Of a stretch of 64,000 nt of DNA, positions 15,391 to 54,240 are shown piece after piece (position 1 is the first letter of the stretch; every line of letters begins with the position of its first letter). A program made the position numbers and the translations under genes. Under the pieces are notes generated by a model. That model was not told the DNA's origin, made no database searches, and saw only the letters and a list, made by a program, of their open reading frames with translations. The stretch comes from Chloroflexota bacterium. Lineage in GTDB: Bacteria > Chloroflexota > Limnocylindria > Limnocylindrales > CSP1-4. The stretch covers positions 920 to 64,919 of the forward strand of contig JAXDKU010000003.1 in the NCBI GenBank assembly GCA_034667005.1. The letters are read 5' to 3'.

Positions 15391-15398
<8 letters not shown>
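14424..15398 (+). CDS. accD: acetyl-CoA carboxylase carboxyltransferase subunit beta
   Basis: N-terminal C4 zinc ribbon (CPNCREMLY...CSKCGHH) and a carboxyltransferase domain. The ATG overlaps the anti-sigma stop. Confidence 0.9.
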
Positions 15399-16404
<1,006 letters not shown>

Positions 16405-16405
16405 G

Positions 16406-18411: not shown

Positions 18412-18439
18412 CGTCAGCCCACGAGGCCAGAGGAGGCCA

Positions 18440-21493: not shown

Positions 21494-21521
21494 GGGCGCA
21501 GGGCGGAGACAGGAGGGACGG

Positions 21522-22712: not shown

Positions 22713-23458
22713 TCAATCTGGAGGGCAAGAGCGCCGTCGTGACCGGCGGGTCCCGGGGCCTTGGGCGCGCGATCGCGGTCCGGCTCGCCGAGCAGGGCGC
22801 CGACGTGGCCTTCAGCTACCGGGGGAACGCGGCGGCCGCGGCTGAGGCGAAGGCGTCGGTCGAGGGGCTCGGGCGGAAGGGCCTGGCGATCCAGGCCGAC
22901 GTGACGCAGCCGGAAGCGGCGGAGGCCCTGATCAAGGGTGCCCTGGAGGCCTTCGGGAAGATCGACATCCTGGTCAACAACGCGGGCATCACACGCGACG
23001 ACCTGATCATGCGGATGAGCGTGGATGCGTGGCGCGAGGTCCTGGAGACGAACCTCTTCGGCGCCTTCTACACGATCAAGGCCGTGACCCGGCCGATGCT
23101 CAAGGCCCGCAGCGGCCGGATCATCAACATCACGAGCGTGTCCGGGCAGGCGGGCCAGACAGGTCAGGCGAACTACTCGGCGGCGAAGGCCGGCCTCATC
23201 GGGCTGACGAAGGCAACCGCCCGCGAGCTGGCAAGCCGGGGGATCACGTGCAACGCGGTCGCGCCAGGGTTCGTCCTCACGGAGCTGACCCAGGATCTCC
23301 CCGAGGCGCTCAAGGAAGAGGTCACCAAGCGCACGCCGCTGGGCCGCTTCGGGACCTCGGAGGAGGTCGCGGCGGCCGTGGCGTTCCTCGCGTCGGACGA
23401 GGCCTCATTCATCACGGGGCAGGTGCTGGCCGTCGACGGCGGCCTAGTGATGATGTAA
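22709..23458 (+). CDS. fabG: 3-oxoacyl-ACP reductase
   Basis: SDR motifs TGGSRGLG and NNAG, with YSAAK catalytic residues. The GTG overlaps the fabH stop. Confidence 0.9.
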   Translation: MINLEGKSAVVTGGSRGLGRAIAVRLAEQGADVAFSYRGNAAAAAEAKASVEGLGRKGLAIQADVTQPEAAEALIKGALEAFGKIDILVNNAGITRDDLIMRMSVDAWREVLETNLFGAFYTIKAVTRPMLKARSGRIINITSVSGQAGQTGQANYSAAKAGLIGLTKATARELASRGITCNAVAPGFVLTELTQDLPEALKEEVTKRTPLGRFGTSEEVAAAVAFLASDEASFITGQVLAVDGGLVMM

Positions 23459-39641: not shown

Positions 39642-41021
39642 CTAGACGTCCTGCGAGAAATCGCCTTCGGGAGCGCTCGGCGACAACGCGTCGTCTTCGA
39701 GGTTCCCGGCGCGCAGGAGCACCTCGGCCAATGCTCGTGCTGCGCCGGTGGCCGTGCCATCGAGCCGCAGCGCCTCCCGAAGCGAGGTCGCGGCTGCCTC
39801 CAGGAGCCCCTGGTTGGCGAGGAGCCGGCCAAGGTGGCCGTGGACCCATGCCAGCTGCGGATCCACGTCGATGGCGTCCTGTGCAGCCAGCACCGCGGCG
39901 TCGGTGCGTCCCTGGCGGTGCAGGGCCATGCTCACCATGCCGCGATAGCCCGCGACGTCCGGAGCGAGCTCCACGGCCCGCCGGAACTCCGCCTCGGCCT
40001 CTTCCGGGCGTCCGTCGCCAAGGAGCGCGATCCCATGCGCGTGGTGGAGCCGTGGCTCGTCCGGGGCCATGGCCAACGCCTCGACCGCGACCGATGCCGC
40101 TTCGCTCTTCGCGTCGGCGGCGGCGAGGGCAAGCACGATCGAGGCGAGCTCGCCGCCGAGCCGCGGTACCCGCATGGCGGCGGCCCATGCGAGCCGGTCC
40201 ATCGCCATCACGGTTCCGGTCCGTATGGCGTCAGCGGTACCCGCGGGATCCGCGGCAAGGCGGCCCCAAAGCGCGGCCTGCGGCGATTCCCGGGGGCCGA
40301 CTGCCACGCGCAGGCTCGCAGGCCAACGCTCCGAGTCCTCGGCGGCGTGGAGCCAGGCACTCAGCGGGGGAGGGCCCCATCCGGTCGTCGTCCGCCAGCT
40401 CGCGCGGAAATGCAGCGCTGTCGCTGATTCGACGTACGCCAGGTTCGTGCCGCCCGCCGGACGCAGGATCCGCTTCCAATACTCCCAGTCGCCGCCCTTG
40501 CGAAACTCGACCGGCCAGTCGCCGAATCGCGCGATGCACGAGCGCCGGTACACCACGCACGAAGCGGGCAGGGTGTTGAACCGGGTCAGGAAGTGATCGA
40601 GCTCCTCGCGCAGACGGAGATCCACGGCGAACGGCACCATCGTCCCGTCGTCGGAGACCCAGACGGGCCGGCTGTACGCCCAGTCCACGTCGGACGGCTC
40701 AAACGCCTTGTCCATCAGTTCCAGGTGATCGTTCAGCAGCAGATCGTCGTGTGCGGCGAACGCCATCAGCTCCCCGCGAGCCTCGCGAAGCGCAACGTTG
40801 CGATTCGCGTAGCCGAAGTTCGGCGCCTTCGGCAGGTCGAACCACCGGATTCGCGGGTCGCGGAAGGCCTGCACGACGGCGGCCGTGCCGTCGGTGCAGC
40901 CATCGCCGACGATGAGGAGCTCGAAATCCTCGAGCGTCTGGGCGAGCACCGAGCGAATGGCGTAGCCGACGACGTCCGCACGGTTGTGCGTCGGCATCAG
41001 GACGCTGAAGCGCGGATTCAC
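39642..41021 (-). CDS. GT2 glycosyltransferase fused to C-terminal TPR repeats
   Basis: FSVLMPTHNRAD...LIVGDGCTDGT is a GT2 N-terminus. The C-terminal ~200 aa show TPR-like A/L-rich repeats. The GTG at 41021 was chosen to avoid overlap with rfbC. Confidence 0.78.
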   Translation of the reverse strand: MNPRFSVLMPTHNRADVVGYAIRSVLAQTLEDFELLIVGDGCTDGTAAVVQAFRDPRIRWFDLPKAPNFGYANRNVALREARGELMAFAAHDDLLLNDHLELMDKAFEPSDVDWAYSRPVWVSDDGTMVPFAVDLRLREELDHFLTRFNTLPASCVVYRRSCIARFGDWPVEFRKGGDWEYWKRILRPAGGTNLAYVESATALHFRASWRTTTGWGPPPLSAWLHAAEDSERWPASLRVAVGPRESPQAALWGRLAADPAGTADAIRTGTVMAMDRLAWAAAMRVPRLGGELASIVLALAAADAKSEAASVAVEALAMAPDEPRLHHAHGIALLGDGRPEEAEAEFRRAVELAPDVAGYRGMVSMALHRQGRTDAAVLAAQDAIDVDPQLAWVHGHLGRLLANQGLLEAAATSLREALRLDGTATGAARALAEVLLRAGNLEDDALSPSAPEGDFSQDV

Positions 41022-41028
41022 CCTCGGG

Positions 41029-41613
41029 TTACCAGCCAGGCGCGCCCCCGAACGAGTGGGGGATGAGCGGTGTGTCGAGCGGAAGCCGGTACTTGTCGGG
41101 GTTGGCATGATCGAACGGCACGGTCGGGAAGTTGATGCCGACGAGGTCCGTTGTCCCGAAATTGCGCGTGGCATGCCAGACGAGCGCCGGGATGTTCATG
41201 AGGCCCCGTTGCATCTCCGACACGCTGATCCTGGAGAGCATCCCGCAGGTCGATGAGTCAGGGCGGACGTCGTAGAGAACGACCTCTCCTTCACCCTGGA
41301 GGATGAAGTACCGGTCCTCGTGCGCCTTGTGCGCGGCCCAGCCCTTGGCGTGGCCCGGGCGGACGGTGAACGCGTACACGTACACCAGCGGATCCTCGTG
41401 CCATTCCCAGCGAGGGTCGTACATCTCCACCAACGAACCCCGGTCGTCCACGTGCGTGACCGCTGGTCGGATGGAGACGCCGTCCGGCAGCCGGGCCGTG
41501 AGCGTGCCCTTTGGCGTGACCGTCTGCGCATCCCTGATGGCTGCACCAAGGGTCAGCTGCGCCAGGTCGCCCGGCGCAAGAGGAAGGTCGTCCGGGGCAG
41601 GAAAGTCAGGCAA
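41029..41613 (-). CDS. rfbC: dTDP-4-dehydrorhamnose 3,5-epimerase
   Basis: Cupin fold with the RmlC-like pattern (RGLHY-like RGSLVEMY, HAKGW...FILQGEGEVVLYD). Confidence 0.78.
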   Translation of the reverse strand: MPDFPAPDDLPLAPGDLAQLTLGAAIRDAQTVTPKGTLTARLPDGVSIRPAVTHVDDRGSLVEMYDPRWEWHEDPLVYVYAFTVRPGHAKGWAAHKAHEDRYFILQGEGEVVLYDVRPDSSTCGMLSRISVSEMQRGLMNIPALVWHATRNFGTTDLVGINFPTVPFDHANPDKYRLPLDTPLIPHSFGGAPGW

Positions 41614-41681: not shown

Positions 41682-44228
41682 GTGACGGTCATCGAGGCTC
41701 GGCGACCCGGCCTCCGTCGCGTCGCGCCGCAGATGAGGGAGACAGCGTTGAGGCTCGCACGGACGGCCCGAGCGGGCCGCCTCATGGCGCACCGGCTGCT
41801 GGCGCATCAGGGCTGGGTGCCGTGGCATAACCCGCTGTTCGATCGCGACTGGTACCGGGATCGCTACAGCGACGTCCGGTTGAAGGGCGCGAATCCCGAG
41901 CGGCACTATCGCCGCCATGGCTTCCGCGAGGGTCGCGACCCCAACCCGTGGTTCAGCACGGCCTGGTACCTCGAGACCTACGCCGACGTTGCGGACAGCG
42001 CCGAGAACCCGCTCGACCACTACTACCTGTACGGCGCGAGCGAAGGGCGCAACCCGGGTCCGTCGTTCGATACGACGTGGTACCTGGACCAATACCCGGA
42101 CGTGCGCGCCTCGGGGATGAACCCGCTGCTCCACTATCTCGAGCACGGTGCCCGGGAAGGACGCATCCGCGCGCCGGGCGCCCGGGTGGTTCGGTCGATG
42201 CCGGGACCTTCAGCCGACGCGGCGGGCTGGGATTCCAGGCTCGTCCTCGTCGTCCATGACGCGCACGACCACGGAGCGCAGCAGAACGCGCTGCACATGG
42301 CCCGGACGCTGTTCGAGCACTTCCACGTTCGCCTGGACATCCTCCTGCTCGGGCCCGGCGCGCTCCGGCCGTCACTCGGACGGTACGGCACCCTCCACGA
42401 CCTCAATGGCGTCGACGCCGCGACCATCGATGCGCTGTTGCGGCAGCTGCGCTCGGATGGCGTCGAAGCGGCGCTCGTGAACACGACGGTCGCAGGCCGG
42501 TTGGCGCCACTCCTCGCGCGCGCCGGGTTCCGCGTCGTGACGCTCGTGCACGAGCTGCCGGGCATCATTCGCGACTACGGACTGGAAGATGTTGCGCGGG
42601 ATGTCGTTGCCTTTTCCGATGCGGTCGTCTTCCCGACTGAGAATGCGCGCGACCGGTTCGCGACGATCGGTGGTGAGCTCGGCTCGAAGGCGCGCGTGAA
42701 GCCCCAGGGCCTGTACAAGCGGCCCGAGCTGCCCGACGATCCGGTCGCCTCGCGCCGGAGCGTCATGGACGACCTTGGCCTCGCACACGCGCAGCCGATG
42801 GTGCTCGCTGTGGGGTTCGCCGATCTCCGGAAGGGATTCGACCTGTTCATCGAGGCGTACGTACGGTCGAAGGTGGCGATGCCGGAGGCCGCCTTCGTGT
42901 GGCTCGGATGCGAGAACGACGCGCTCCGCCAGCGGTACGAGCGCGGCGCGCGACGTCTGGGCATGGACGACACCCTGCGGCTGCTGCCGCGTGTCCCCGA
43001 TGTCGGACGCTATTACGCGGCGGCCGACCTCGTTCTCCTGCCATCACGGGAAGATCCCTACCCGTCCGTGGTTCTCGAGGCATTGAGCCACGGCCGTCCC
43101 GTCATCGCCTTCGATGGCGCGACCGGCGCCACCGACCTGCTGCGGCGAGGGGCGGGCGTCGTCGTGCCCTATCTGGACGTCGGGGCGATGAGCGCTGCCG
43201 CCGTCGAGCTGCTCAAGGACGGACCGACGCGCGACCGCCTCGGTTCGACCGGGAGGCAGATCGTGGCGGATGAGTACGACTGGCTGGACTATCTGCACGC
43301 CTTGCTCGAGCTTCTCGGTCAGCCGAGGGCGCGCGTGTCGGTGGTGGTGCCCAATTACAACTACGCGCGGTACCTGCCAGAACGCCTGGAGAGCATCTTT
43401 CGACAGTCATACCCGGTCCGCGAGGTGATCGTCCCCGATGACGCCTCCACGGATGACAGCCTCGCCACGCTGGCAGAGCTGCGGTCGATGCGCGGCTGGG
43501 AGATGGACGTCGTGCCGTCCGAGAGCAACTCGGGATCGGTGTTCCGACAGTGGCTGCGGGGAGTGGAGCGGTCGAAGGGTGAGCTCGTGTGGATCGCCGA
43601 AGCCGACGACGTCGCCCACCCCGGTTTCCTGGCCGCGCTGGTTCCGCTGTTCTCGGATGGAGATGTGGCGCTGGCGTACGCGCAGTCGTCCCAGATCGAC
43701 GCCGAGGGCAGGCGCCTCGCAAACGACTACCTGAACTACGTCGCCGACGTGGACCCGCAGAAGTGGCGTCACTCGTGGAAGCGCGGTGGACGTCAGGAGA
43801 TCGTCGAGAGCCTGGCGATCCGGAACACGATCCCGAATGTCAGCGCAGTGCTGTTCGATCGCGCGCGTCTCCTCGACGCGCTGCGTACCCATCTCGACGC
43901 GATAACCGGCTTCAAGATCGCCGGGGACTATGCCGTGTACTTCCACATGCTGAAGGGCGACGCAAGCGTCGCCTTCGTGAGCGACACGCTCAACGACCAT
44001 CGTCGGCACGACAAAGGGGTCACGGTCGGGTCGTTCGGCCCTGCGGTCGTCGAGGAGATCGCGAGGATGCAGGAGGCGATCGCTTCCGAGGTCGCGATTC
44101 CGGAGGAGACGGCTCGGCGCGCCAGGGGTTACCTGCGCGAGCTCGTGCAGCAATTCGATCTGCCGGACGACTTCGTCGACCGCCTGCCGAGCTCCCGATC
44201 GCGCCGGGATGGAATTGGGGCATCCTAG
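41682..44228 (+). CDS. bifunctional GT4-GT2 glycosyltransferase with N-terminal tandem-repeat domain
   Basis: Three ~38-aa repeats ([FW]FDxxWYLxxYPDVxxSGxNPLxHYxxxGxxEGRxPxP) at 41835-42176. GT4 motif EDPYPSVVLEALSHGRPVIAFD. GT2 motif VSVVVPNYNYARYL...DDASTDDS. Confidence 0.8.
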   Translation: MTVIEARRPGLRRVAPQMRETALRLARTARAGRLMAHRLLAHQGWVPWHNPLFDRDWYRDRYSDVRLKGANPERHYRRHGFREGRDPNPWFSTAWYLETYADVADSAENPLDHYYLYGASEGRNPGPSFDTTWYLDQYPDVRASGMNPLLHYLEHGAREGRIRAPGARVVRSMPGPSADAAGWDSRLVLVVHDAHDHGAQQNALHMARTLFEHFHVRLDILLLGPGALRPSLGRYGTLHDLNGVDAATIDALLRQLRSDGVEAALVNTTVAGRLAPLLARAGFRVVTLVHELPGIIRDYGLEDVARDVVAFSDAVVFPTENARDRFATIGGELGSKARVKPQGLYKRPELPDDPVASRRSVMDDLGLAHAQPMVLAVGFADLRKGFDLFIEAYVRSKVAMPEAAFVWLGCENDALRQRYERGARRLGMDDTLRLLPRVPDVGRYYAAADLVLLPSREDPYPSVVLEALSHGRPVIAFDGATGATDLLRRGAGVVVPYLDVGAMSAAAVELLKDGPTRDRLGSTGRQIVADEYDWLDYLHALLELLGQPRARVSVVVPNYNYARYLPERLESIFRQSYPVREVIVPDDASTDDSLATLAELRSMRGWEMDVVPSESNSGSVFRQWLRGVERSKGELVWIAEADDVAHPGFLAALVPLFSDGDVALAYAQSSQIDAEGRRLANDYLNYVADVDPQKWRHSWKRGGRQEIVESLAIRNTIPNVSAVLFDRARLLDALRTHLDAITGFKIAGDYAVYFHMLKGDASVAFVSDTLNDHRRHDKGVTVGSFGPAVVEEIARMQEAIASEVAIPEETARRARGYLRELVQQFDLPDDFVDRLPSSRSRRDGIGAS

Positions 44229-44298
44229 CGAGCCGGCGAATGAGCAGGATCCACGGCAGACCGGCGGGGCATCTCACCCGGAGGGGCATCGCAACTCG

Positions 44299-45264
44299 AT
44301 GACACGGCTTGGGCGGATCGAAACGGCGGACGACACCCGGATCTCGGGATGGGCGTTCGACACGGACGCTGATGGATGCCTCGTCGAGCTGATGCTCGAC
44401 GGCCGTCCGTTCGTGAGCGTCCACGCCGACCTGGCACGACCCGACGTGGCGAGGGAGTACGGCCACGAGCGGTCCGGGTTCGTGTTCCGCATCGGAACCG
44501 CCCTTGCTGACCTCATCCCCTCTGGATCCAAGGTCAGCGCCCGGTTCGCGACCGGGGAGCCCCTGGGCTTGCAATCCGGGCTCGCATCGATTGGGCGAGC
44601 CACACCGGACCTGTTCACGCGCCTCGCCCGCGGCTGGCGAGTGAGCCCCAAGAGTGGCGACGCCTACTGGCCGATCGGCAACAGTACGACGTGGACGACC
44701 TCCCTCGGCCCGACCTACCAGCGGGCGCGTGAGGTGTTCACATCGGAGCTCGGGCGCGACCTCTTCGCTGCGTACGGGTCGCTGCTCGGGCTCGTCCGCG
44801 AGGGTCGGTTCCTGGCGCACGACGATGACTTCGACGCCGCTTTCCTCTCGACCGGAACGACCGTCGAGACCGTGGCGGAGGACCTGGTCGGCGTCGCGAA
44901 ACGACTCCTCGACCTCGGCCTGGACGTGCGGCTGCTGAACCAGGGAAGCTTCCACCTCAAGCTGGCCGGCACCGGCCCGATCCTCGACATCTTCGTCTTC
45001 GCGCGAGTGGACGAGCGGATGCTGGCCTACCAGGTGTTCCGGCCGGTCCCGTCAGGGGCGCTGGATCCGACGGGCGAGATCGTCCACGACGGGGTCTCGT
45101 ACGCCGCGCCGCGGGATACGGACGCGGTACTCACGGCCATCTACGGCAGCCGCTGGCGGATACCGGACCCGCACTTCCAATGGCGGCCGGACGCCGAAAC
45201 CGCCGAGACAATGGCAAAGCTCCAACGCGCGATCGCGGCCGCCCGCGCACAGGTCGGGATCTGA
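44299..45264 (+). CDS. LicD-family phosphotransferase-like protein
   Basis: LicD signature GSLLGLVREGRFLAHDDDFDAAF and a second DxD motif. Confidence 0.7.
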   Translation: MTRLGRIETADDTRISGWAFDTDADGCLVELMLDGRPFVSVHADLARPDVAREYGHERSGFVFRIGTALADLIPSGSKVSARFATGEPLGLQSGLASIGRATPDLFTRLARGWRVSPKSGDAYWPIGNSTTWTTSLGPTYQRAREVFTSELGRDLFAAYGSLLGLVREGRFLAHDDDFDAAFLSTGTTVETVAEDLVGVAKRLLDLGLDVRLLNQGSFHLKLAGTGPILDIFVFARVDERMLAYQVFRPVPSGALDPTGEIVHDGVSYAAPRDTDAVLTAIYGSRWRIPDPHFQWRPDAETAETMAKLQRAIAAARAQVGI

Positions 45265-45888
45265 GTGGCGGGCACGGCGGCGACGAGCGTCGACTATTGG
45301 AACCGCTTCTACGCGCGGTGGCGGCACACGCTCCCGTCGCAGTTCGCGGCACTCGTCGCGTCGGAGCTCGCGCCAGCGACGCTGGTGGTGGACATCGGCT
45401 GCGGCAACGGCCGCGACACCTTCTTCTTCGCCCGCAGCGGCTTCCCCACCATCGGGATCGACCGCTCGTCCGTGTCGATCGAGGCCAACGCGCGCATGCG
45501 GTCTGCCGGTGACGTGCGCTTCATCAACGCGGACATCACGGCGTGCGACCTTGCCGCGCTGATGCCGCCGCACGAGCGGGCGTGCTTCTACGCGCGGTTC
45601 TTCCTGCACGCCATCGACGACGCGACCGAGGATGCACTGCTCGGCCGGCTTGCCGAGATCCCCGAGGGAAGCCTGCTCTGCCTCGAGTTCCGGACGCTCG
45701 CCGACGAGGCGACGGCGAAGACCTTCGGCGACCACGACCGGCGCTACATCGACCACGAGGCGCTGGTGCGCGCTCTGCCGGCCCGGGGCTTCCAGGTCGA
45801 CTACGAGCGGCAGGGCCGCGGCATGGCCAAGTTCCGCGACGAGGACCCCTACGTCGGCCGCATCCTCGCGAGCAAGGTCGCCGGCTGA
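45265..45888 (+). CDS. class I SAM-dependent methyltransferase
   Basis: VVDIGCGNGRD motif I. The GTG start follows the upstream stop. Confidence 0.7.
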   Translation: MAGTAATSVDYWNRFYARWRHTLPSQFAALVASELAPATLVVDIGCGNGRDTFFFARSGFPTIGIDRSSVSIEANARMRSAGDVRFINADITACDLAALMPPHERACFYARFFLHAIDDATEDALLGRLAEIPEGSLLCLEFRTLADEATAKTFGDHDRRYIDHEALVRALPARGFQVDYERQGRGMAKFRDEDPYVGRILASKVAG

Positions 45889-45901: not shown

Positions 45902-46711
45902 TCACTGCTTCAGGATCTCTTCCTGGTAGTAGGTCGCCGCATCCTCGGTGCTGCCGTTGAAGACGAGCCGCCCCTGGTCCAGGACCATGGCGCTGTCGGA
46001 GAGCGTGCGGACGGAGCCCATGTTGTGGCTCACGAACAGCACCGTGCGGCCCTCCTGCACGAGACGCCGGATGCGCTGCTGGCACTTCTGCTGGAAGGCT
46101 GCGTCGCCGACGGCCAGCACCTCGTCGATCAGCATGATCTCGGCGGCCATGTGCGCCGACACGCTGAACGCCAGCCGCAGGTACATGCCGCTCGAGTAGT
46201 GCTTCACGGGTGTGTCCAGGAAGCGCCCGATCTCCGCGAACTCGATGATCTCGGACTCGACGGACGCGATCTCCTCGCGGCTCATGCCCAGGATCGCGCC
46301 GCTCAGGCCGATGTTGTCGCGCCCGCTGAGCTCCGGATGGAACCCCGTGCCAACCTGGAGAAGCGCACCCACGCGTCCGCGCGTCTCCGCCCAGCCCTCG
46401 GTCGGCGAGGTGACGCGGGCAAGGATCTTCATGAGCGTGCTCTTGCCCGAGCCGTTGCGGCCGAGGACGCCCAGCACGTGGCCCTGCGGCACCTCGAAGC
46501 CCACCTCGCGGAGCGCCCAGACCTCCGGGTGCGGGTCCACGGACCGAGTGCGGGATCCGACCAGCCTGCCGAGGCGGTCGTACAGGCCGCCGTCCGGCGC
46601 CGCGCCGATGTCGTAGCGCTTCCCCAGACCACGGACGCGCACGGCCGGCTCGGCGGTCGATGCCGGCCCGGCTGTGGATGCCGGCTCGCCGGTGAACCCG
46701 GGGTCGGCCAT
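45902..46711 (-). CDS. polysaccharide ABC transporter ATP-binding protein (Wzt/TagH-like)
   Basis: Walker A GRNGSGKST, the LSGG-like signature HYSSGM and Walker B LIDEVLAVGD. The ATG at 46711 was chosen to avoid overlap with the upstream gene. Confidence 0.85.
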   Translation of the reverse strand: MADPGFTGEPASTAGPASTAEPAVRVRGLGKRYDIGAAPDGGLYDRLGRLVGSRTRSVDPHPEVWALREVGFEVPQGHVLGVLGRNGSGKSTLMKILARVTSPTEGWAETRGRVGALLQVGTGFHPELSGRDNIGLSGAILGMSREEIASVESEIIEFAEIGRFLDTPVKHYSSGMYLRLAFSVSAHMAAEIMLIDEVLAVGDAAFQQKCQQRIRRLVQEGRTVLFVSHNMGSVRTLSDSAMVLDQGRLVFNGSTEDAATYYQEEILKQ

Positions 46712-46758
46712 CGACACCGGGTCGGCCGGCACCGCGCGGTCGGCCGCGCTGGACTGGG

Positions 46759-48579
46759 TCACCGGACGGACTGTCCGGCCGTCGCGGGCGCGGCCTCGGT
46801 TGCCCACGCCGCCGCCGTCTCGGCCAGCGCGCTTCGCGTCGCCTCCAGGAAGCCATAGCCGAAGTGCGTGTCGGGCTCCAGGTTGGCGCCCTCGCCCCAC
46901 TCGTTCCACGCGTTGACGAAGATCAGCGACTCGGGCTCCGGGTTATGGCGCATCTCCTGGTCCAGGATCCCTCGGAGCCACTGGCCGTAGAGCTCCGGCG
47001 TCGCGCCGTGCCCGATGTGGGCTGCCGTTCCGAGGCGCGGCGTGTTGTCCCAGGCGAGCATGACGCCGCGGTGGGCCGGCTGGTCGTACCCGTGGCCGCG
47101 CGTCTCGAGGTTGGTCCTCACGGCGTGGCCGTAGTCGTAGATCAGCCCGCTGAAGTCGCGGTCCAGGCCCTTGACCTTTCGCGAGACGTCACGCACGGCG
47201 ATCTGGTGCGGAGGGAAGTCGATCGCGGCGTCGAAGCCCAGCTCCTGGACGTTCACGACGTCCCAGAAGCGGACGCCCGCCACGTGGATCTCGCCGATGC
47301 CCGCGGCGCGGCACTCCCGGCGCCACATCTCGATGGTCTCGGCGACATCCGGCAGGTGCCGGACGCGGTAGACGATCAGGACCGGGCGGCCGCCGTGACG
47401 CACGTAGCGCGGGTCCTCGAGGATGGGGATGACGTCGCGGATGAACCGCCGGTTCGACTCGACCGAGTACGACTGGCCGACGAGAACCTCCTGGTCGAGC
47501 CCGTCCCACCGCCGGGTCCAGTTCTCGTTGGCCCAGCAGATGCAGAACGGCAGGTCCGGCCGGCCCGACGCCAGCATCTCGTTGAGCGGCCGCTCCAGCA
47601 GGCGCCGGCCGTTGAACCAGTAGAAGTAGTAGCAGAACGCGTCGATCCCGTACCCGCGCGCCAGCGCGGCCTGGGCCTCGCGCGTCTCGGGCACGCGGAG
47701 GTCGTAGAAGCCGAGGTCTGTGGGCAGCCGCGGCTGCGGATGGCCGTCGTAGAGGGGCCGCGCCCGCGCCACGTGCGTCCACTCGGTGAAGCCCGCGCCC
47801 CACCAGCGGTCGTTCTCCGGGATGGGGTGGAACTGCGGCAGGTAGAACGCCACCAGCCTGACGCGCCGCCGCCCGATGGCCGTGCCGGGGTGGTCCACGG
47901 GAACGGACGGGTCGCGCGATGCCGACTGCGCAATCGAGATGGGGCTCGCCGATGCACCGCCTTCCGCCGCGACGTGGTCGGCCTCCGCACGGGCGTTGGG
48001 CCGCACGGATCCCGTGCCCTCCCGCGTCACGAAGTGGACGAGCGGGTTGACGCCCTCTTCCGCGGCGTCGGGATGGCGCGCGACGTACCAGGCCGAGTCG
48101 AAGTCCGGATGGGGGTCCAGGCCGAGGCCTGCGCCCGTCCGGAGGTAGTGCGACAGCGGGTTGACCCCGGGCTCCAGCGTGCCCGCATGGTGGAGGTAGT
48201 AGCCGGTGTCGAACCAGCGGTGCGGGGAGCGCTGCCGCCGGGCGCCGTTGCGGATGAAGTCGAGGAACGGGCCCGTGCCTCGCGCCGCGACTCCGGGGTA
48301 GCGGGCCGCGTAGTAGCGCGCATCGAAGAGAGGATTCGGCCGCCGGCCCTCGGCGGCACCGTGCCGCACATAGTGGGACAGCGGATCGACGCCGCTCGCC
48401 GCCACGTCGGGATAGGCGGAGCGGTAGAAGCCCTCGTCGAAGAGGCCGCTGCGCCGGATCTCTGCGAGGGCGCGTGCCTCCGCGATGCGGCCGGGAAGGT
48501 GCGTCGGGCTGGCGGCAGCCAGGTCCTTGAGCGTGCCGCGCGCCGCCCGCACCAGCCGTGTGCGCCGAGTCATTGGCAC
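46759..48579 (-). CDS. WbsX-like glycosyltransferase with N-terminal tandem-repeat domain
   Basis: Four copies of the same ~38-aa NPLxHY...EGR repeat (47998-48447). Then the Glyco_tran_WbsX hallmark AFYLPQFHPIPENDRWWGAGFTEW. Confidence 0.8.
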   Translation of the reverse strand: MPMTRRTRLVRAARGTLKDLAAASPTHLPGRIAEARALAEIRRSGLFDEGFYRSAYPDVAASGVDPLSHYVRHGAAEGRRPNPLFDARYYAARYPGVAARGTGPFLDFIRNGARRQRSPHRWFDTGYYLHHAGTLEPGVNPLSHYLRTGAGLGLDPHPDFDSAWYVARHPDAAEEGVNPLVHFVTREGTGSVRPNARAEADHVAAEGGASASPISIAQSASRDPSVPVDHPGTAIGRRRVRLVAFYLPQFHPIPENDRWWGAGFTEWTHVARARPLYDGHPQPRLPTDLGFYDLRVPETREAQAALARGYGIDAFCYYFYWFNGRRLLERPLNEMLASGRPDLPFCICWANENWTRRWDGLDQEVLVGQSYSVESNRRFIRDVIPILEDPRYVRHGGRPVLIVYRVRHLPDVAETIEMWRRECRAAGIGEIHVAGVRFWDVVNVQELGFDAAIDFPPHQIAVRDVSRKVKGLDRDFSGLIYDYGHAVRTNLETRGHGYDQPAHRGVMLAWDNTPRLGTAAHIGHGATPELYGQWLRGILDQEMRHNPEPESLIFVNAWNEWGEGANLEPDTHFGYGFLEATRSALAETAAAWATEAAPATAGQSVR

Positions 48580-48637: not shown

Positions 48638-49555
48638 TCATACGAGGTCCGAGAACGTGCGCTCGCGCTTGCGGAAGAACAGGTACCCGCTCACGAGCAG
48701 CAGGGCGGCCATGAACGGACCCAGGATCCAGGCCTCCGGTGGCGGGGGTGCCGCGCCTCCGACCGCCCAGCGGAATCCCTCGACGGAGAGCGCGATCGGG
48801 TTGAGGTGGTAGAGCGCGCGATACGGCTCGGGAACGATGGAGCTCGAGTAGATGACCGGAGACGCGAACATCCAGAGCTGTGCGAGGAACGGCAGCAGCT
48901 GGGCCACGTCCCGGTAGGCCACGTTGAGGGCGGACAGCCAGTACGCCACGCCAAGCCCGCTGGCCCAGGCCACGGCCACGAACAATGGAAGGAAGACGAC
49001 GGGCCACCCGGGAACGATGCCGAAGATCACCAGCAGGACCGCCAGCGCGCCGAAACCGAAGGCGAGATCCACCAGGCTCGCCAGCGCGACCGACGTCGGG
49101 AAGTAGACCCTCGGGAAGTAGACGCGGGTGACGAGCGCGGCGTTGGCGACGACGCTGGCGCTGCCCTCCGCCAGGATCTTGGAGACCATCTGCCACGGCA
49201 GGAGCCCGAGATAGAAGAAGACGGGATAGGGCAGGCCGCCGGAGGGAGTCCTCGCGAGGAGGCCGAAGAAGATCGTGAAGACGCCCATCAGCAGGATGGG
49301 CTGGAGCACCGCCCAGGCGCCGCCGACCAGGGTCTGCCGGTAGCGCACTTTGAGGTTCCGCCGGGCGAGCACGACGCAGATCGCGCGCAGCCGCCACAGC
49401 TCATCAAGGCCGAGGCCGGGCCAGGTCGTGGGCGGCACGATGGTGGTCACCGCGCCGCTCGTGCCCGCTGGGGCGGCGACGCGCGCGCGGCCCTCGATCG
49501 ACGCTGGCTCGTTCATCGGCGGTATTCCATCCGTGCTGATCCCAGCCGGCCGCAT
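48638..49555 (-). CDS. polysaccharide ABC transporter permease (Wzm, ABC-2 type)
   Basis: Six hydrophobic helices with the ABC-2 pattern. The N-terminal start is uncertain. Confidence 0.78.
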   Translation of the reverse strand: MRPAGISTDGIPPMNEPASIEGRARVAAPAGTSGAVTTIVPPTTWPGLGLDELWRLRAICVVLARRNLKVRYRQTLVGGAWAVLQPILLMGVFTIFFGLLARTPSGGLPYPVFFYLGLLPWQMVSKILAEGSASVVANAALVTRVYFPRVYFPTSVALASLVDLAFGFGALAVLLVIFGIVPGWPVVFLPLFVAVAWASGLGVAYWLSALNVAYRDVAQLLPFLAQLWMFASPVIYSSSIVPEPYRALYHLNPIALSVEGFRWAVGGAAPPPPEAWILGPFMAALLLVSGYLFFRKRERTFSDLV

Positions 49556-51934: not shown

Positions 51935-53017
51935 TCATCCTCGGATCGCCCGGCCGATCTCCACCCACGTCTGCCGGGCCGACGCGGCCCAGGTGTAGCC
52001 CGAGGCCACGGTGCGGCCGCGCTCGCGCAGGTCGGCCCGGAGCGCCTCGTCCCCCGCCAACCGAGTGACGACCAGCGCCAGGGCCTCTGGATCGTTCGGA
52101 TCGAAGATCAACGCCGCCCCGGCCGTCACCTCCGGCAGGGAGCCCGCGTCGGCGACCGCGGTCGGGATGCCGTGGGCCATCGCCTCGACCGGGGGCAGGC
52201 CGAACCCCTCGGCCAGCGACGGAAACAGGAACATCCGCGCTCCCGCGTAGAGCGCGCCGAGCCGCGCCTCCGGCACCGCGCCCGTGAAGACGATGCGATC
52301 CGGGCGCCGGAGGGCCCCCGCGCGTTCCCGCAGTTGCGGCTCGTCACGCCCCGCGGGTCCGCAGACGACGAGCGTCAGGTCGTCGGGCACGCCGCTCCGC
52401 CAGGCGTCGAGGAGCAGCCCGACGTTCTTGTGTGGCTCCGTCTGCCCAACGTAGAGCGCGTAGGGCGTCGGGACCCCGTGCCGGGCGGAGGTCCGGATCC
52501 GGGCGTGGTCCACGCCCTCCGGCGCGGTCGTGACGCGCGAAGGCTCGACGCCGAAGCGTTCGATGACCTGTCGCCGGACGAACTCCGACGGTACGACCAG
52601 ACCGTCGGCGCGTGCCGTCGCGAGATGCAGCTGTGCCGTTGCCCACCGGACATACGCCGGGTCGTAGGCCCACGGGTGCGTGAGGACGTTCACGTCGTGG
52701 ATGGCCGCCACGATCGGCCGGGGCAGGCGGAACGGGATCTGCGGCCCGGGCGAGAACCAGGCACCCAGCTGGTGTCGCAGCGTGCCCCAGGACGCTCCCA
52801 GCGAAAGCCAGCCGATCTCGGCGGCCAGGTTGATCGCTCGCCTGGCGGGCGTGGGAATGGCCTGCGACGCGGAGTCGAGCTTCGGCCAGCCGGCCAGCGC
52901 CACCAGCGAGCGCCCCTCGGGCACGCTCGCCGCCATGGCGCGATGCAGCTCCCGCGCGTACCGGCGCGTGCCGCCGCGCGGGTAGCGGAGGATCCGGAGG
53001 TCGTAGCCGACGTTCAC
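51935..53017 (-). CDS. GT4 glycosyltransferase
   Basis: FPSLAEGFGLPPVEAMAHG motif. The GTG at 53017 overlaps the upstream stop (GTGA). Confidence 0.78.
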   Translation of the reverse strand: MNVGYDLRILRYPRGGTRRYARELHRAMAASVPEGRSLVALAGWPKLDSASQAIPTPARRAINLAAEIGWLSLGASWGTLRHQLGAWFSPGPQIPFRLPRPIVAAIHDVNVLTHPWAYDPAYVRWATAQLHLATARADGLVVPSEFVRRQVIERFGVEPSRVTTAPEGVDHARIRTSARHGVPTPYALYVGQTEPHKNVGLLLDAWRSGVPDDLTLVVCGPAGRDEPQLRERAGALRRPDRIVFTGAVPEARLGALYAGARMFLFPSLAEGFGLPPVEAMAHGIPTAVADAGSLPEVTAGAALIFDPNDPEALALVVTRLAGDEALRADLRERGRTVASGYTWAASARQTWVEIGRAIRG

Positions 53018-54240
53018 GGCGCGCCCTGGCTTCCGGCGGCGTCCGGCCCGTCGAGGCCGTCGAGGCCGTCGAGGCCGGCGAGGTCGGCGAGGCCGGCGAG
53101 GCGGGCCGCCGCTTCCACGGCCGACACGAACGCCGACGCGGATGCCTCGGCCGAGAAGCGAGACGCGAGCGCCAGCCGCTCGGCATGCGGAGGCGCCTCG
53201 TCGAGCGCCCGCTCGACGGCGTCGGCGATCGCGTTCGGCTCCGGCCCCGTGGCGAAGACGGCCGCTCCCCGGAGGCTTGCCGCGTACACGGGGAGCGGCA
53301 CGGCCGCGACGCGGCCGCCGGCCAGGATCGCCTCGAGTGGTGGTAGGCCGAGCCCTTCGCGCGCTGAGACGGCCAGCGTCACGCTCGACGCGTAGAGGCG
53401 GCCCAGGGTCGCGTCGTCCACGTAGCCGAGGACCTCGACCAGCGACCCGATGCCGAGGCCCGCGGCGCGCTCCCGGAGGCGCTGCATCTCCCCGGGCAGC
53501 GGCATCCCGACGATCCTCAGCGGCAGCGGCCGCCCACGATACCGGAGGATCCCGCAGACCTCGACCGCGAGGTCGAAGCGCTTGCGCGGCTCGGCGACGC
53601 CCACGACGAGGAGGCCCTCGATCGCAGCGCCGTCTGCTGGGGCCGGCGAACCCGGCGACCCCGGCCACCCCGGCGATGTCGTCGTTCCCGGGGTCACGAT
53701 CCACGGCGGAACGACCCGGATCCGTGCCGCGGGAATGCCAAGCCGCCGCCGCAGCTCCGCCGCCGTCTCGTCCGAGTTCGCGATCACCATCCGGGCCCTG
53801 CGCAGGCGCCGCAGGTAGAGGCGGTACGCGATCCGCCGGTCGGGACGCCTTGCCAGCCTGTCGAGCGGGATGAGGTCGTGCGCGGCCACGATCGAGCGAG
53901 CCGCGGGGAGCGGGCCGAGCGGCCGGTTGACGTCCGTCTGGAACCAGAGGTCGGCCGCGCCGCGCACCGCCATCCGGTCGCCAAGGGCCGCAAGCAGCCA
54001 GTCCGTCTCCAGGTGCGGGATCGCGGGCGGTTGCGTGCGCCACGTGGCGACCATCCCCGGCGGCAGTCCCACGTCACCGTCGCCGCCCGTGAGGATCCGC
54101 AGGTGGCTGGCCGCCCACTCGGGCCGTGCCTCCGCCAGCGCCCGCAGCAGTGACCCCGTGTAGCGGCCGATCCCGCGTACGCCGTGCCCGAACGGCCCGG
54201 TCGACGGATCGATCGGCCGGGCATCGAAGCCAACCCTCAC
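53014..54240 (-). CDS. GT4 glycosyltransferase with a C-terminal G-L-A/D repeat tail
   Basis: MRVGFDAR N-terminus and an SAREGLGLPPLEAILAGG motif. The C-terminus is encoded by tandem 9-bp repeats at 53050-53103. Confidence 0.78.
   Translation of the reverse strand: MRVGFDARPIDPSTGPFGHGVRGIGRYTGSLLRALAEARPEWAASHLRILTGGDGDVGLPPGMVATWRTQPPAIPHLETDWLLAALGDRMAVRGAADLWFQTDVNRPLGPLPAARSIVAAHDLIPLDRLARRPDRRIAYRLYLRRLRRARMVIANSDETAAELRRRLGIPAARIRVVPPWIVTPGTTTSPGWPGSPGSPAPADGAAIEGLLVVGVAEPRKRFDLAVEVCGILRYRGRPLPLRIVGMPLPGEMQRLRERAAGLGIGSLVEVLGYVDDATLGRLYASSVTLAVSAREGLGLPPLEAILAGGRVAAVPLPVYAASLRGAAVFATGPEPNAIADAVERALDEAPPHAERLALASRFSAEASASAFVSAVEAAARLAGLADLAGLDGLDGLDGPDAAGSQGAP

What the first reader, a model, noticed from the sequence alone, without database searches (positions are those of the whole stretch)
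41835..42176. Novel ~38-aa tandem repeat shared by two glycosyltransferases
Three copies in the GT4-GT2 fusion (41835-42176) and four in the WbsX-like protein (47998-48447) follow the pattern [FW]FDxxWYLxxYPDVxxSGxNPLxHYxxxGxxEGRxPxP. The repeat precedes catalytic domains in otherwise TM-less enzymes. It may serve as a membrane- or polymer-docking module, or as a molecular ruler. I cannot assign it to a named domain family.
Basis: seen in the sequence. Interest (0 to 1): 0.6.

Follow-up and report, generated by a model that had tools for sequence, protein, structure and literature searches.

The report
Unnamed helical repeat on glycan polymerases
Two sugar-chain-building enzymes in this Chloroflexota gene cluster each begin with 3-4 copies of a 38-residue helical repeat that no database names, although it occurs in over 20,000 bacterial protein families, and its placement suggests it is the docking arm that assembles the enzymes of ABC-transporter-type polysaccharide factories.

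Summary
ORF A (41682-44228, GT4-GT2) has three 38-aa units and ORF B (46759-48579, minus strand, WbsX) has four. A profile built from one protein finds the other at E=2e-30.

No Pfam or NCBIfam model, PDB sequence or PDB fold (Foldseek) matches the repeat. It is nevertheless very common: 23,220 cluster representatives, more than 12 phyla, and up to 26 units per protein. Orthologues keep it: A-like proteins have 3 units (9/9) and B-like proteins mostly 4.

AlphaFold2 predicts, with pLDDT 95, three short helices plus a proline-rich loop per unit. In B a disordered linker tethers the array to the catalytic domain.

The family shows strict polarity. GT modules follow the array (186 of 189 recognised C-terminal domains). 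Capping-type enzymes and coiled coils precede it. Some coiled-coil proteins end with an array, and the next gene starts with one. ABC-2 transporters lie nearby in 6 of 8 contexts.

Best reading: a non-catalytic docking or spacing arm of the polymerase complex, sitting at the base of the coiled-coil ruler. It is neither a membrane anchor nor a ruler substitute. The function is inferred, not shown.

The parts
41682..44228 (+). ORF A: leader + 3 repeat units + GT4 + GT2 (848 aa from the GTG at 41682; NCBI annotates 814 aa from M35, QOH61_92)
41682..41834 (+). A leader (aa 1-51), Arg-rich, ends in VPWHNP. Orthologues have 29-57-aa basic leaders ending VWHNP/VWRNP, so the true start is probably upstream of the annotated M35.
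41835..41948 (+). A unit 1 (aa 52-89): LFDRDWYRDRYSDVRLKGANPERHYRRHGFREGRDPNP
41949..42062 (+). A unit 2 (aa 90-127)
42063..42176 (+). A unit 3 (aa 128-165)
42765..43259 (+). A GT4 C-terminal Rossmann domain (Glycos_transf_1, aa 362-526)
43332..43991 (+). A GT2 domain (Glyco_tranf_2_3 aa 551-770; Glycos_transf_2 aa 553-684)
46759..48579 (-). ORF B: leader + 4 repeat units + disordered linker + WbsX (GH99-like) domain (606 aa; NCBI QOH61_96, 604 aa)
48445..48579 (-). B leader (aa 1-45), net charge about +7, predicted as two helices (aa 4-22 and 25-44), ends in the cap motif IRRSG before LFD
47995..48444 (-). B array, 4 units (aa 46-83, 84-121, 122-158, 159-195); AF2 pLDDT 90-96
47854..47994 (-). 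B linker (aa 196-242), Ala/Ser/Pro-rich; aa 199-227 have pLDDT <50 (disordered tether)
46837..47853 (-). B catalytic domain, Glyco_tran_WbsX PF14307 (aa 243-581)
48638..49555 (-). Context: Wzm-type ABC-2 permease
45902..46909 (-). Context: Wzt-type ABC ATPase (ABC_tran aa 133-264; no Wzt_C domain detected)

Best explanation
The repeat belongs to a large, so far unnamed family of 38-residue alpha-helical solenoid units. Each unit has three short helices plus a Pro-rich loop, and the array has an [ILV]xxSG-LFD N-terminal cap. The array forms an autonomous, non-catalytic arm on cytoplasmic enzymes of ABC-transporter-dependent glycan assembly.

In this window, a WbsX-GT4-GT2 polymerase that is a single polypeptide in many other bacteria is split into two proteins. 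Each half carries its own arm: a basic leader, 3 or 4 units, and a flexible tether.

The most likely mechanism is docking and spacing. The arm holds the chain-extending glycosyltransferase modules in the membrane-proximal polymerisation complex, through arm-arm or arm-partner contacts. It occupies the position where, in the E. coli O9a prototype, the coiled-coil terminator WbdD recruits the polymerase WbdA. In long versions it also adds length between the coiled-coil ruler and the GT modules.

Shown here: existence, conservation, predicted fold, domain polarity, co-occurrence in clusters, and genomic context. Inferred: the binding partners, arm-arm docking, and any effect on chain length.
For: 1. 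Real and conserved module.
- The cross-protein HMM gives E about 1e-30.
- All 9 A-like orthologues have 3 units. RgpF-WbsX relatives of B have 4 units in 23 of 47.
- 97 of 120 A homologues and 102 of 120 B homologues carry it.
- The 38-aa period is sharply kept (876 spacings of exactly 38).

2. Autonomous folded arm.
- AF2 of the array gives pLDDT 94.8 and pTM 0.87, with three helices per unit.
- In full-length B the array is confident (pLDDT 90-96), but aa 199-227 are below 50.
- Nearly all family-invariant residues are helix caps, prolines or hydrophobics. Surface positions vary, as in scaffold repeats.

3. Restricted to glycan enzymes. Partners are GT2, GT4, WbsX, WsaF, RgpF, GT61, methyl-, sulfo- and pyruvyl-transferases.

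4. Strict polarity in the 150 most array-rich proteins.
- C-terminal to the array: GT2 111, GT4 57, WbsX 9, RgpF 9, MT 3.
- N-terminal to the array: MT 16, PyrT 3, GT2 4, GT4 1.
- Short C-terminal arrays sit on non-GT proteins: 8 of 10 without any Pfam domain, one MT, one sulfotransferase.

5. Coiled-coil-like segments lie upstream of arrays and not downstream.
- They make up 22.6% of N-flank residues, versus 3.1% of C-flank and 0.2% of array residues.
- 32 of 61 long N-flanks contain one; none of 150 proteins has one C-terminal to the array.
- In reference genomes, 11 of 18 C-terminal-array proteins have one.
- The layouts are therefore terminator - coiled coil - array - GTs, or X - coiled coil - array-COOH. 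The published systems have the same order, with the polymerase recruited at the membrane-proximal end of the coiled coil (PMC11231755).

6. Adjacent gene pairs. Gene 1 ends with a 2-unit array and gene 2 starts with leader + array + GT in several genomes (L018, L051, L057, L067, L084, L036).

7. Rosetta stone. 107 homologues fuse WbsX-GT4-GT2. In all 87 fusions that have an array, it lies in front of WbsX. When the fusion is split, as here, the GT4-GT2 half carries its own array in 9 of 9 cases.

8. Several enzymes of one cluster carry arrays: 2 in the window, 4 in L003, 3 in L129.

9. Wzm/Wzt-type genes lie within 10 kb in 6 of 8 contexts.
Against: - There is no direct evidence of any interaction. 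No multimer prediction could be run, and no coordinates were available to see which residues are exposed.
- The window contains no protein with a C-terminal array and no long coiled-coil protein. The proposed partner here would have to be the other arm, or something encoded outside the 64 kb.
- Unit numbers of co-clustered arrays are not matched in general.
- About 15-20% of homologues lack the array altogether, so it is not obligatory.
- The coiled-coil calls come from a crude home-made heptad scan. Its controls are GCN4, the internal background rates, and one Pfam coiled-coil hit.
- The domain-order census used local jackhmmer profiles and leaves many N-flank domains unidentified.
- TPRs coexist with the array in some homologues. 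This shows the array is not simply a generic protein-protein repeat that TPRs could replace.
Confidence: 0.45

Rival explanations
1. Glycan-binding track. The solenoid binds the nascent polysaccharide or the lipid-linked acceptor, like a non-canonical carbohydrate-binding module. This would increase polymerase processivity or guide the growing chain towards the terminator.
For: - It is found only on glycan-modifying enzymes.
- Each unit is rich in conserved aromatics and His: F2, W/Y6, Y7, H24 and Y25 at 95-100%. Such residues are typical of sugar-binding platforms.
- Variable surface positions could match different glycans.
- Accessory CBMs do occur in these systems: Wzt_C in L126 and a predicted CBM in K. 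pneumoniae O7 ORF6 (PMC11231755).
- Variable array length could match variable chain length.
Against: - The conserved aromatics are spaced as expected for the hydrophobic core of three short helices. They are the same across enzymes that must handle very different glycans (rhamnans, WbsX products, GT61 and others).
- Conservation of the same residues irrespective of partner enzyme argues for a structural role.
- No similarity to any CBM family in Pfam.
- The head-to-tail gene pairs and the fixed polarity relative to coiled coils are not predicted by simple glycan binding.
Confidence: 0.2
2. Molecular ruler proper. The rigid solenoid is itself the length-determining spacer, so the unit number sets the modal glycan chain length, as heptad number does in WbdD and WbbB.
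For: - The period is rigidly kept and the model is high-confidence and regular.
- Unit number ranges from 0 to 26 across the family but is fixed among orthologues.
- In long-array proteins the array lies in series with the coiled coil, between terminator and GT modules. It must therefore add to the terminator-polymerase distance.
Against: - In the window proteins there is no terminator in cis. The arrays are short (3-4 units) and N-terminal. In B a roughly 30-45-aa disordered linker separates the array from the enzyme, so the array cannot define a distance there.
- Long-array proteins keep a conventional coiled coil, so the array is not a substitute ruler.
- Most arrays have only 2-4 units.
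Confidence: 0.12
3. Peripheral membrane anchor. The repeat itself binds the cytoplasmic face of the membrane to place TM-less enzymes next to the undecaprenyl-linked acceptor.
For: - A and B have no TM segment, yet must act at the membrane.
- The leader in front of the array is strongly basic: mean +3.8 in the best 18-aa window, versus +1.4 in control segments.
Against: - The arrays themselves are acidic on average (-1.76 per unit; 0 and -3 for the window arrays).
- They lack exposed hydrophobic stretches.
- The leaders' hydrophobic moment is no higher than controls (0.26 versus 0.27), and their sequence is not conserved beyond the cap.
- Internal arrays of up to 24 units make no sense as membrane anchors.
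Confidence: 0.06
4. No specific function. The repeat is a low-complexity or chance similarity, or a neutral expandable linker.
For: - Some homologues lack it.
- Unit number is variable across the family.
Against: - Cross-protein E-values are about 1e-30.
- 15,110 representatives match at E<=1e-10.
- Several residues are invariant.
- The AF2 fold is confident.
- Unit number is fixed among orthologues at 49-75% identity.
- There is no DNA-level repeat.
- The domain polarity is strict.
Confidence: 0.01

Closest known systems
Coiled-coil terminator/ruler systems of ABC-transporter-dependent O-antigen assembly (E. coli O9a WbdD-WbdA; K. pneumoniae O12 WbbB; K. pneumoniae O7 ORF6), as described in PMC11231755
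   Same: - Same pathway type: Wzm/Wzt lie nearby in 6 of 8 contexts.
- Same module order: capping enzyme (methyl- or pyruvyl-transferase), then coiled coil, then polymerase GT modules.
- A non-catalytic element at the polymerase-proximal end of the coiled coil is where WbdD recruits WbdA.
- Catalytic modules are variably fused or split among polypeptides.
   Different: - The element here is a Pro-rich 38-aa three-helix solenoid, not a coiled coil and not an amphipathic helix (0.2% CC-like residues).
- It is present on the polymerase proteins themselves, often on several enzymes of one cluster.
- It has not been described in those prototypes; the paper does not contain the words 'repeats', 'tandem' or 'solenoid'.
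- The window's cluster has no long coiled-coil protein at all.
Alpha-solenoid scaffold repeats fused to glycosyltransferases (TPR, Sel1-like, ARM/HEAT, ankyrin)
   Same: - Tandem helical units of 33-42 aa.
- The consensus residues are structural and the surface positions vary.
- They are fused to GTs. A GT2-TPR protein is in this very cluster, at 39642-41174.
- ARM also has three helices per unit.
- The G-x-N-P-L-x-H motif recalls the ankyrin G-x-T-P-L-H helix start. This is my own observation: a lead, not a test.
   Different: - No Pfam TPR, SEL1, ARM, HEAT or ANK model matches the window arrays at E<=10.
- Only one near-perfect-repeat array accumulates a partial Arm match (positions 7-24 of 41, with no stretch significant on its own).
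- Foldseek finds no PDB solenoid (best TM 0.17).
- TPRs coexist with the array, N-terminal to it, rather than replacing it.
Octatricopeptide repeats (OPR), the known 38-aa helical repeat
   Same: A unit length of 38 residues, helical, in tandem.
   Different: OPR is bihelical and highly degenerate, with a PPPEW motif, and is found in algal or apicomplexan organellar RNA-binding proteins (PMC12691811). The present unit has three helices, a strongly conserved and unrelated consensus, and is bacterial and tied to glycan enzymes.
Docking domains of modular synthases (PKS/NRPS C-terminal to N-terminal docking pairs) - functional analogy from general knowledge
   Same: There is a polarity rule. The upstream protein ends with the element and the downstream protein starts with it. 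Fused versions have it internally.
   Different: There is no sequence or structural relation, and no interaction has been demonstrated here. This is only an analogy for how the arrays might work.
Pfam PF24706 (DUF7669) and PF17102 (Stealth_CR3): the only Pfam models with any signal
   Same: - Stealth_CR3 positions 27-47 align with HGFREGRDPNPWF... of unit 1 of A (E=0.0086).
- DUF7669 positions 27-59 of 75 align to part of a unit in 3 of 49 proteins.
   Different: - The Stealth_CR3 score of 16.4 bits is below the 24.2-bit cut-off, and only 1 of 7 units matches.
- DUF7669 does not match the window arrays at E<=10 or 4 of 5 long arrays. Where it does match, no single stretch is significant.
- Neither is a model of this repeat.

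Membership tests
Host protein A: GT4 + GT2 glycosyltransferase fusion | Pfam Glycos_transf_1 and Glycos_transf_2 above their gathering scores | tested here: met
   77.4 bits each, against cut-offs of 26.4 and 23.3
Host protein B: WbsX / GH99-like family (PF14307) | Full-length match to PF14307 | tested here: met
   435.5 bits, E=2.4e-130, profile positions 2-350 of 350
TPR / Sel1 / ARM / HEAT / ankyrin repeat families | Sequence match to a Pfam repeat model of the clan | tested here: not met
   No such hit at E<=10 for either window array. A 13-unit protein (P0081) matches only GT61. 4 of 5 isolated long arrays give nothing, and 1 gives only a partial accumulated Arm signal with 0 significant stretches.
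TPR / Sel1 / ARM / HEAT / ankyrin repeat families | Fold superposable on a solved solenoid of that class | tested here: inconclusive
Octatricopeptide repeat (OPR) | 38-aa bihelical unit with a PPPEW-like motif, in organellar RNA-binding proteins | tested here: not met
   The consensus has no PPPEW motif. The model has three helices per unit. The partners are bacterial glycan enzymes. The OPR definition is taken from PMC12691811.
Stealth protein CR3 (PF17102) | Score at or above the Pfam gathering threshold | tested here: not met
   16.4 bits against a 24.2-bit cut-off, for one unit only
DUF7669 (PF24706) | Significant domain-level match of the array to the model | tested here: not met
   The window arrays give no hit at E<=10. 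Only 3 of 49 array proteins match. In P0139 the score is 25.1 bits with 0 stretches significant on their own.
Coiled-coil molecular ruler (WbdD/WbbB type) | Extended heptad coiled coil | tested here: not met
   Arrays are Pro-rich (10% Pro), and 0.2% of array residues are CC-like against 22.6% in N-flanks
Coiled-coil molecular ruler (WbdD/WbbB type) | Lies between the terminating enzyme and the polymerase GT modules | tested here: met
   Met for long-array family members: MT/PyrT - coiled coil - array - GT2/GT4. Not met for the two window proteins, which have no terminator in cis.
Coiled-coil molecular ruler (WbdD/WbbB type) | Its length determines glycan chain length | not testable with these tools
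   This needs unit-number mutants and chain-length profiling.
Carbohydrate-binding module (e.g. Wzt C-terminal domain) | Match to a CBM family or a beta-sandwich fold | tested here: not met
   The predicted fold is all-alpha and there is no CBM or Wzt_C Pfam hit. Glycan binding by a new fold was not tested.
New family proposed here (38-aa LFD...NPLxHY...EGRxPxP repeat) | Units match the family profile in tandem with a period of about 38 | tested here: met
   All 7 window units match the profile built from them (per-unit E 2.2e-22 to 2.5e-18). With a profile built from the other protein only, per-unit E ranges from 7.8e-16 to 4e-4. The profile finds 23,220 representatives. The modal period is 38.

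The most novel reading that the evidence does not exclude
The 38-aa solenoid is a previously unrecognised, self-associating docking system with a new fold that wires together ABC-transporter-dependent glycan factories. C-terminal arrays on coiled-coil terminator proteins would pair or stack with N-terminal arrays on polymerase glycosyltransferases. In split polymerases, as in this window, arrays on the two halves would pair with each other. Unit number would fine-tune the terminator-polymerase distance, and hence chain length. This would be a general alternative to the WbdD-WbdA recruitment mechanism, across more than 12 phyla.
Probability: 0.3. Interest if true: 0.8.

Novelty: new variant of a known kind. 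Interest (0 to 1): 0.62.

Why it matters
How the soluble, multi-module enzymes of ABC-transporter-dependent polysaccharide synthesis find each other and the membrane, and how termination is coupled to polymerisation, is known for only a handful of enterobacterial prototypes that rely on a coiled-coil protein. This work identifies a very common accessory module: about 15,000-23,000 protein families, more than 12 phyla, no Pfam or NCBIfam name, no solved structure, and no mention in the searchable literature. It sits at exactly the junction between ruler and polymerase, and it marks the chain-extending enzymes.

If it is the docking arm, three things follow:
- It gives a sequence signature for recognising polymerase components in uncharacterised clusters.
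- It gives a testable handle on complex assembly and chain-length control outside the Enterobacteriaceae.
- It offers a modular part for glycoengineering.

At a minimum it deserves a curated family model and an experimental structure.

Tried and rejected
- Stealth_CR3: the hit is sub-threshold and affects one unit only, so I treated it as chance.
- DUF7669 and Arm: partial, accumulated matches in one near-perfect-repeat array. They are not models of the repeat.
- OPR: same 38-aa length but otherwise unrelated.
- TPR displacement: TPRs sit N-terminal to the array and do not replace it.
- "The solenoid replaces the coiled-coil ruler". I held this idea after and rejected it when the same proteins proved to contain long coiled-coil-like segments upstream of the array.
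- Amphipathic membrane helix in the leader: the leaders are basic, but their hydrophobic moment is no higher than controls and their sequence is not conserved.
- Matched unit numbers in co-clustered arrays: not generally matched.
- Stand-alone repeat proteins: the example examined (P0016) is a frameshift fragment of a 9-unit array. The short hits are therefore probably mostly fragments.
- Phage or giant-virus origin: only 2 pattern hits in IMG/VR, and only weak BFVD matches.
- The search for related loci with the alignment failed because the alignment was too degenerate. A back-translated DNA pattern was used instead.
- Literature searches for the motif, for WbsX repeats, for 38-residue repeats and for helical repeats on O-antigen polymerases found nothing relevant.
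Full report
**Observation**

The window is high-GC DNA from a Chloroflexota metagenome-assembled genome. Proteins A and B are 100% identical to NCBI entries QOH61_92 and QOH61_96.

ORF A (41682-44228, + strand, 848 aa) consists of:
- a 51-aa Arg-rich leader;
- three 38-aa units (aa 52-165, nt 41835-42176);
- a short linker;
- a GT4 domain and a GT2 domain.

ORF B (46759-48579, minus strand, 606 aa) consists of:
- a 45-aa basic leader;
- four units (aa 46-195, nt 47995-48444);
- an Ala/Ser/Pro-rich linker;
- a full-length Glyco_tran_WbsX (GH99-like) domain.

The seven units align with only a single one-residue gap and one short end. A profile built only from A's units finds all four units of B at E=1.7e-30, and the reverse gives 2.3e-30. 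Nothing else in the six-frame translation of the 64-kb window scores better than E=1. No 114-bp tandem repeat exists at DNA level, and the units are only about 69% identical per DNA column. These are therefore old units maintained by selection on the protein. Neither protein has a transmembrane segment.

**Is the repeat named?**

- Pfam-A (2025 copy) and NCBIfam give no model for the arrays at E<=10. The only signal is a sub-threshold Stealth_CR3 hit on one unit: 16.4 bits against a 24.2-bit cut-off.
- A protein with 13 units (P0081) matches only GT61.
- Of five isolated 8-13-unit arrays, four give only noise. One near-perfect-repeat array accumulates partial Arm and DUF7669 signals, with no individually significant stretch.
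- Profile searches of PDB sequences find nothing, with best E-values of 0.45 and 0.19.
- Full-text searches for the motif and for related descriptions find nothing.
- The known 38-aa "octatricopeptide" repeat is unrelated. It is bihelical and degenerate, has a PPPEW motif, and occurs in organellar RNA-binding proteins (PMC12691811).

**How common is it?**

An exhaustive HMMER search of 1.84 billion cluster representatives with the 7-unit profile returned:
- 23,220 proteins at E<=1e-3;
- 15,110 at E<=1e-10;
- 4,021 at E<=1e-30;
- up to 24 units in one protein.

The inter-unit spacing is exactly 38 in 876 cases, 37 in 225 and 39 in 121. The consensus of 872 units is LFDxx[WYF]YLxx[NY]PDVAxxGxNPLxH[YF]LxxGAxEGR[DN]P[HN]P. 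F2 and Y7 are invariant, and L1, P21, H24, G29, P36 and P38 are at 93-97%.

I scanned 185,579 reference genomes with a back-translated pattern spanning a unit boundary (HYxxxGxxEGRxPxPxFD). By my own estimate the chance expectation is about 0.1 hit in the whole collection. The loci come from Acidobacteriota, Alpha-, Beta- and Gammaproteobacteria, Verrucomicrobiota, Planctomycetota, Gemmatimonadota, Actinomycetota, Myxococcota, Bdellovibrionota, Elusimicrobiota, Spirochaetota and Desulfobacterota. In that less biased sample the median is 3 units per ORF and the maximum 26. Arrays are N-terminal in 49 complete ORFs, C-terminal in 18 and internal in 16.

**Conservation in orthologues**

- All nine complete A-like GT4-GT2 proteins (49-57% identity) have exactly three N-terminal units.
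- RgpF-WbsX relatives of B mostly have four (23 of 47).
- Overall, 97 of 120 A homologues and 102 of 120 B homologues carry at least one unit, over a range of 0-14.
- Units keep some positional identity: identity at the same position in different proteins is 0.50-0.53, against 0.40-0.43 for different positions.
- A few family-variable positions at the end of helix 3 are conserved among B's orthologues. This evidence is weak.

**Predicted structure**

AlphaFold2 on B's array, with an alignment of 23 orthologous arrays, gives mean pLDDT 94.8 and pTM 0.87. Each unit forms three short helices, at roughly unit positions 4-10, 12-17 and 21-29. They are followed by a 12-residue Pro-rich loop.

The conserved D3, P12-D13 and N20-P21 sit at helix starts. 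The conserved aromatic and aliphatic residues have the spacing of a core. I infer that the consensus is structural and the variable positions are surface, but no coordinates were available to verify this.

In the full-length B model:
- the array keeps pLDDT 90-96;
- the leader forms two helices (aa 4-22 and 25-44);
- aa 199-227 fall below pLDDT 50;
- pTM is 0.63.

The array is thus an autonomous module on a flexible tether.

**What it travels with**

In two independent samples, 49 array-rich proteins and 71 ORFs from reference genomes, the partners are exclusively cytoplasmic glycan enzymes. They are GT2, GT4, WbsX, WsaF, RgpF, GT61, SAM- and FkbM-type methyltransferases, Methyltransf_24, sulfotransferases, pyruvyltransferase, PIG-L and GDPD.

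The window cluster also encodes:
- Wzm (48638-49555) and Wzt (45902-46909);
- three further GT4s;
- a GT2-TPR protein;
- a LicD-like protein next to a methyltransferase.

ABC2_membrane plus ABC_tran genes lie within 10 kb in 6 of the 8 contexts I examined: the window, L003, L126 (with Wzt_C), L129, L130 and L131. They are absent from L127 and L128. Several enzymes of one cluster carry arrays: 2 in the window, 4 in L003 and 3 in L129.

**Architecture rules**

1. Rosetta stone. 107 homologues are single WbsX-GT4-GT2 polypeptides. In all 87 of these that have an array, it precedes WbsX. In this window the fusion is split, and each half has its own array. This holds for every split GT4-GT2 half examined (9 of 9).

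2. Polarity. In the 150 most array-rich proteins, I located domains with local jackhmmer profiles seeded from Pfam-verified segments.

| Position relative to array | Domains found |
|---|---|
| C-terminal | GT2 111, GT4 57, WbsX 9, RgpF 9, MT 3 |
| N-terminal | MT 16, pyruvyltransferase 3, GT2 4, GT4 1 |

Ten short C-terminal arrays from reference genomes sit on non-GT proteins: eight with no Pfam domain, one Methyltransf_24 and one sulfotransferase.

3. Coiled coils. I first thought the solenoid might replace the coiled-coil ruler of WbbB-type proteins. A crude heptad scan (GCN4 as positive control) showed otherwise. CC-like residues make up 22.6% of N-flanks, 3.1% of C-flanks and 0.2% of arrays. 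32 of 61 proteins with a long N-flank have a CC-like segment of at least 60 aa. Examples are P0067 aa 257-496 before an array at 549-1306, and P0132 aa 284-678 before an array at 730. None of the 150 has one after the array. A Pfam coiled-coil hit in P0073 agrees. In the genome sample, 11 of 18 C-terminal-array proteins and 8 of 16 internal-array proteins have a CC-like segment just upstream. The gap between the coiled coil and the first unit clusters near 50 aa.

4. Adjacent pairs. In L018, L051, L057, L067, L084 and L036, one gene ends with a 1-2-unit array, often after a coiled coil. The next gene begins with its own leader, cap motif and array, followed where visible by a GT2. Each array has its own cap, so these are not one array split by a frameshift.

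**Interpretation**

Published work on ABC-transporter-dependent O-antigen assembly shows three things (PMC11231755):
- The enzymes form multiprotein complexes.
- The terminator sits at the distal end of a coiled-coil ruler.
- The polymerase is either fused at, or recruited to, the membrane-proximal end. In E. coli O9a, WbdA is recruited by the C-terminal region of WbdD.

The 38-aa array occupies exactly that junction. It appears at the C-terminus of coiled-coil proteins, at the N-terminus of polymerase-type GT proteins, and between the two parts in fused proteins.

The most economical reading is a docking and spacing arm that assembles the polymerase complex. For this window, the arms would hold the two halves of a split WbsX | GT4-GT2 polymerase together, or on a common partner. 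I rate this at 0.45. The interaction itself is inferred, and I could not run multimer predictions.

The alternatives are as follows:
- Glycan-binding track (0.2). The unit is rich in conserved aromatics and found only on glycan enzymes. However, the same residues are conserved regardless of the partner enzyme.
- A true ruler (0.12). This is plausible as an extension in long arrays. It is not plausible for the short, flexibly tethered arrays here.
- Direct membrane anchoring (0.06). Arrays are acidic, at -1.76 per unit. The basic element is the leader (+3.8 against +1.4 in controls). The leader has no elevated hydrophobic moment and no conserved sequence beyond [ILV]xxSG-LFD.
- No specific function (0.01).

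**Caveats**

- The window has no protein with a C-terminal array and no long coiled-coil protein in the cluster.
- 15-20% of homologues lack the array.
- Co-clustered arrays do not have matched unit numbers.
- My coiled-coil scan and domain census are home-made and leave many N-flank domains unassigned.
- I could not query InterPro member databases other than Pfam and NCBIfam, so a Gene3D- or SUPERFAMILY-type assignment cannot be excluded.

**Verdict**

This is a real, ancient and very widespread but unnamed helical repeat: a new family of a known kind of accessory module. Its architectural logic ties it to complex assembly in ABC-transporter-dependent glycan synthesis. It is not unique to this genome, so its interest lies in the family rather than in the locus.

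Noticed in passing
window 41682-41834: NCBI annotates protein A from M35 (814 aa). That leaves only 17 aa before the first unit. Orthologues have 29-57-aa Arg/Leu-rich leaders ending VWHNP. The true start is therefore probably upstream, either the GTG at 41682 or the internal M18.
   Followed up: partly
L129 14069-16406 (minus strand): In one genome the B orthologue is split. A 383-aa gene with no Pfam hit carries a leader plus 3 units, and it overlaps by 14 nt the start of an array-less 399-aa WbsX gene (P0386, 68% identical to B). Either the array works in trans or there is a frameshift or assembly error.
   Followed up: partly
L128 8924-11207: The 'stand-alone' 144-aa repeat protein P0016 is a fragment. 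Nine units are spread over three reading frames directly upstream of a 983-aa WsaF-GT2 gene. Many of the short hits are probably similar fragments.
   Followed up: partly
L018, L051, L057, L067, L084, L036 (reference-genome loci): Adjacent gene pairs recur in which gene 1 ends with a 1-2-unit array (often after a long coiled-coil-like region) and gene 2 starts with leader + array + GT. In L051 the two ORFs are in the same frame, separated by a single stop codon.
   Followed up: partly
window 44209-45888; L127 5651-7133: A LicD-like gene next to a small SAM methyltransferase is present both in the window and beside the Aminobacter MT-array-WbsX-GT4-GT2 gene. This pair may be the chain-capping (phospho-/methyl-) activity of these clusters.
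   Followed up: no
window 39642-41174 (minus strand): The same cluster encodes a GT2 fused to C-terminal TPRs. Some B homologues carry TPRs N-terminal to the 38-aa array. The two kinds of helical repeat coexist in one pathway.
   Followed up: partly
BFVD hits (Hyperionvirus, Harvfovirus, Indivirus, cedratvirus proteins): There are weak Foldseek matches (E about 6e-3) between the array model and giant-virus GT2, FkbM-methyltransferase and DUF5672 proteins. Single-unit superpositions reach rmsd 1.3 over 35-40 residues at 34-38% identity. A diverged version of the unit may exist in nucleocytoviricota glycan enzymes. The strict DNA pattern found only 2 IMG/VR loci.
   Followed up: partly
window 46644-46693: An 18-bp tandem repeat (2.8 copies, GCCGGCTCGGCGGTCGAT) lies in the region encoding the Pro/Ala/Ser/Thr-rich N-terminal extension of the Wzt ATPase. 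The ABC domain starts only at aa 133, and no Wzt_C domain was detected.
   Followed up: no
P0154, P0254, P0244 (family members): Some proteins have units arranged as regularly spaced pairs separated by linkers of about 25-45 aa (for example 29-104, 132-207, 231-307 and 334-405), instead of a continuous array. This suggests that a two-unit module is a functional sub-unit.
   Followed up: no
window 51935-54043 (minus strand): The 702-aa ORF has an N-terminal half of about 330 aa of Arg/Pro/Gly-rich low-complexity sequence before what looks like a GT4-type C-terminal half by eye (no Pfam scan was run on this ORF). The long ORF is probably a high-GC artefact and the real gene shorter.
   Followed up: no
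window 41029-41613 (minus strand): The 194-aa protein divergent from ORF A matches Pfam Polysacc_synt_C (PF14667, E=4e-9), although it is small and soluble-looking. Its position is conserved next to A in other contigs.
   Followed up: no
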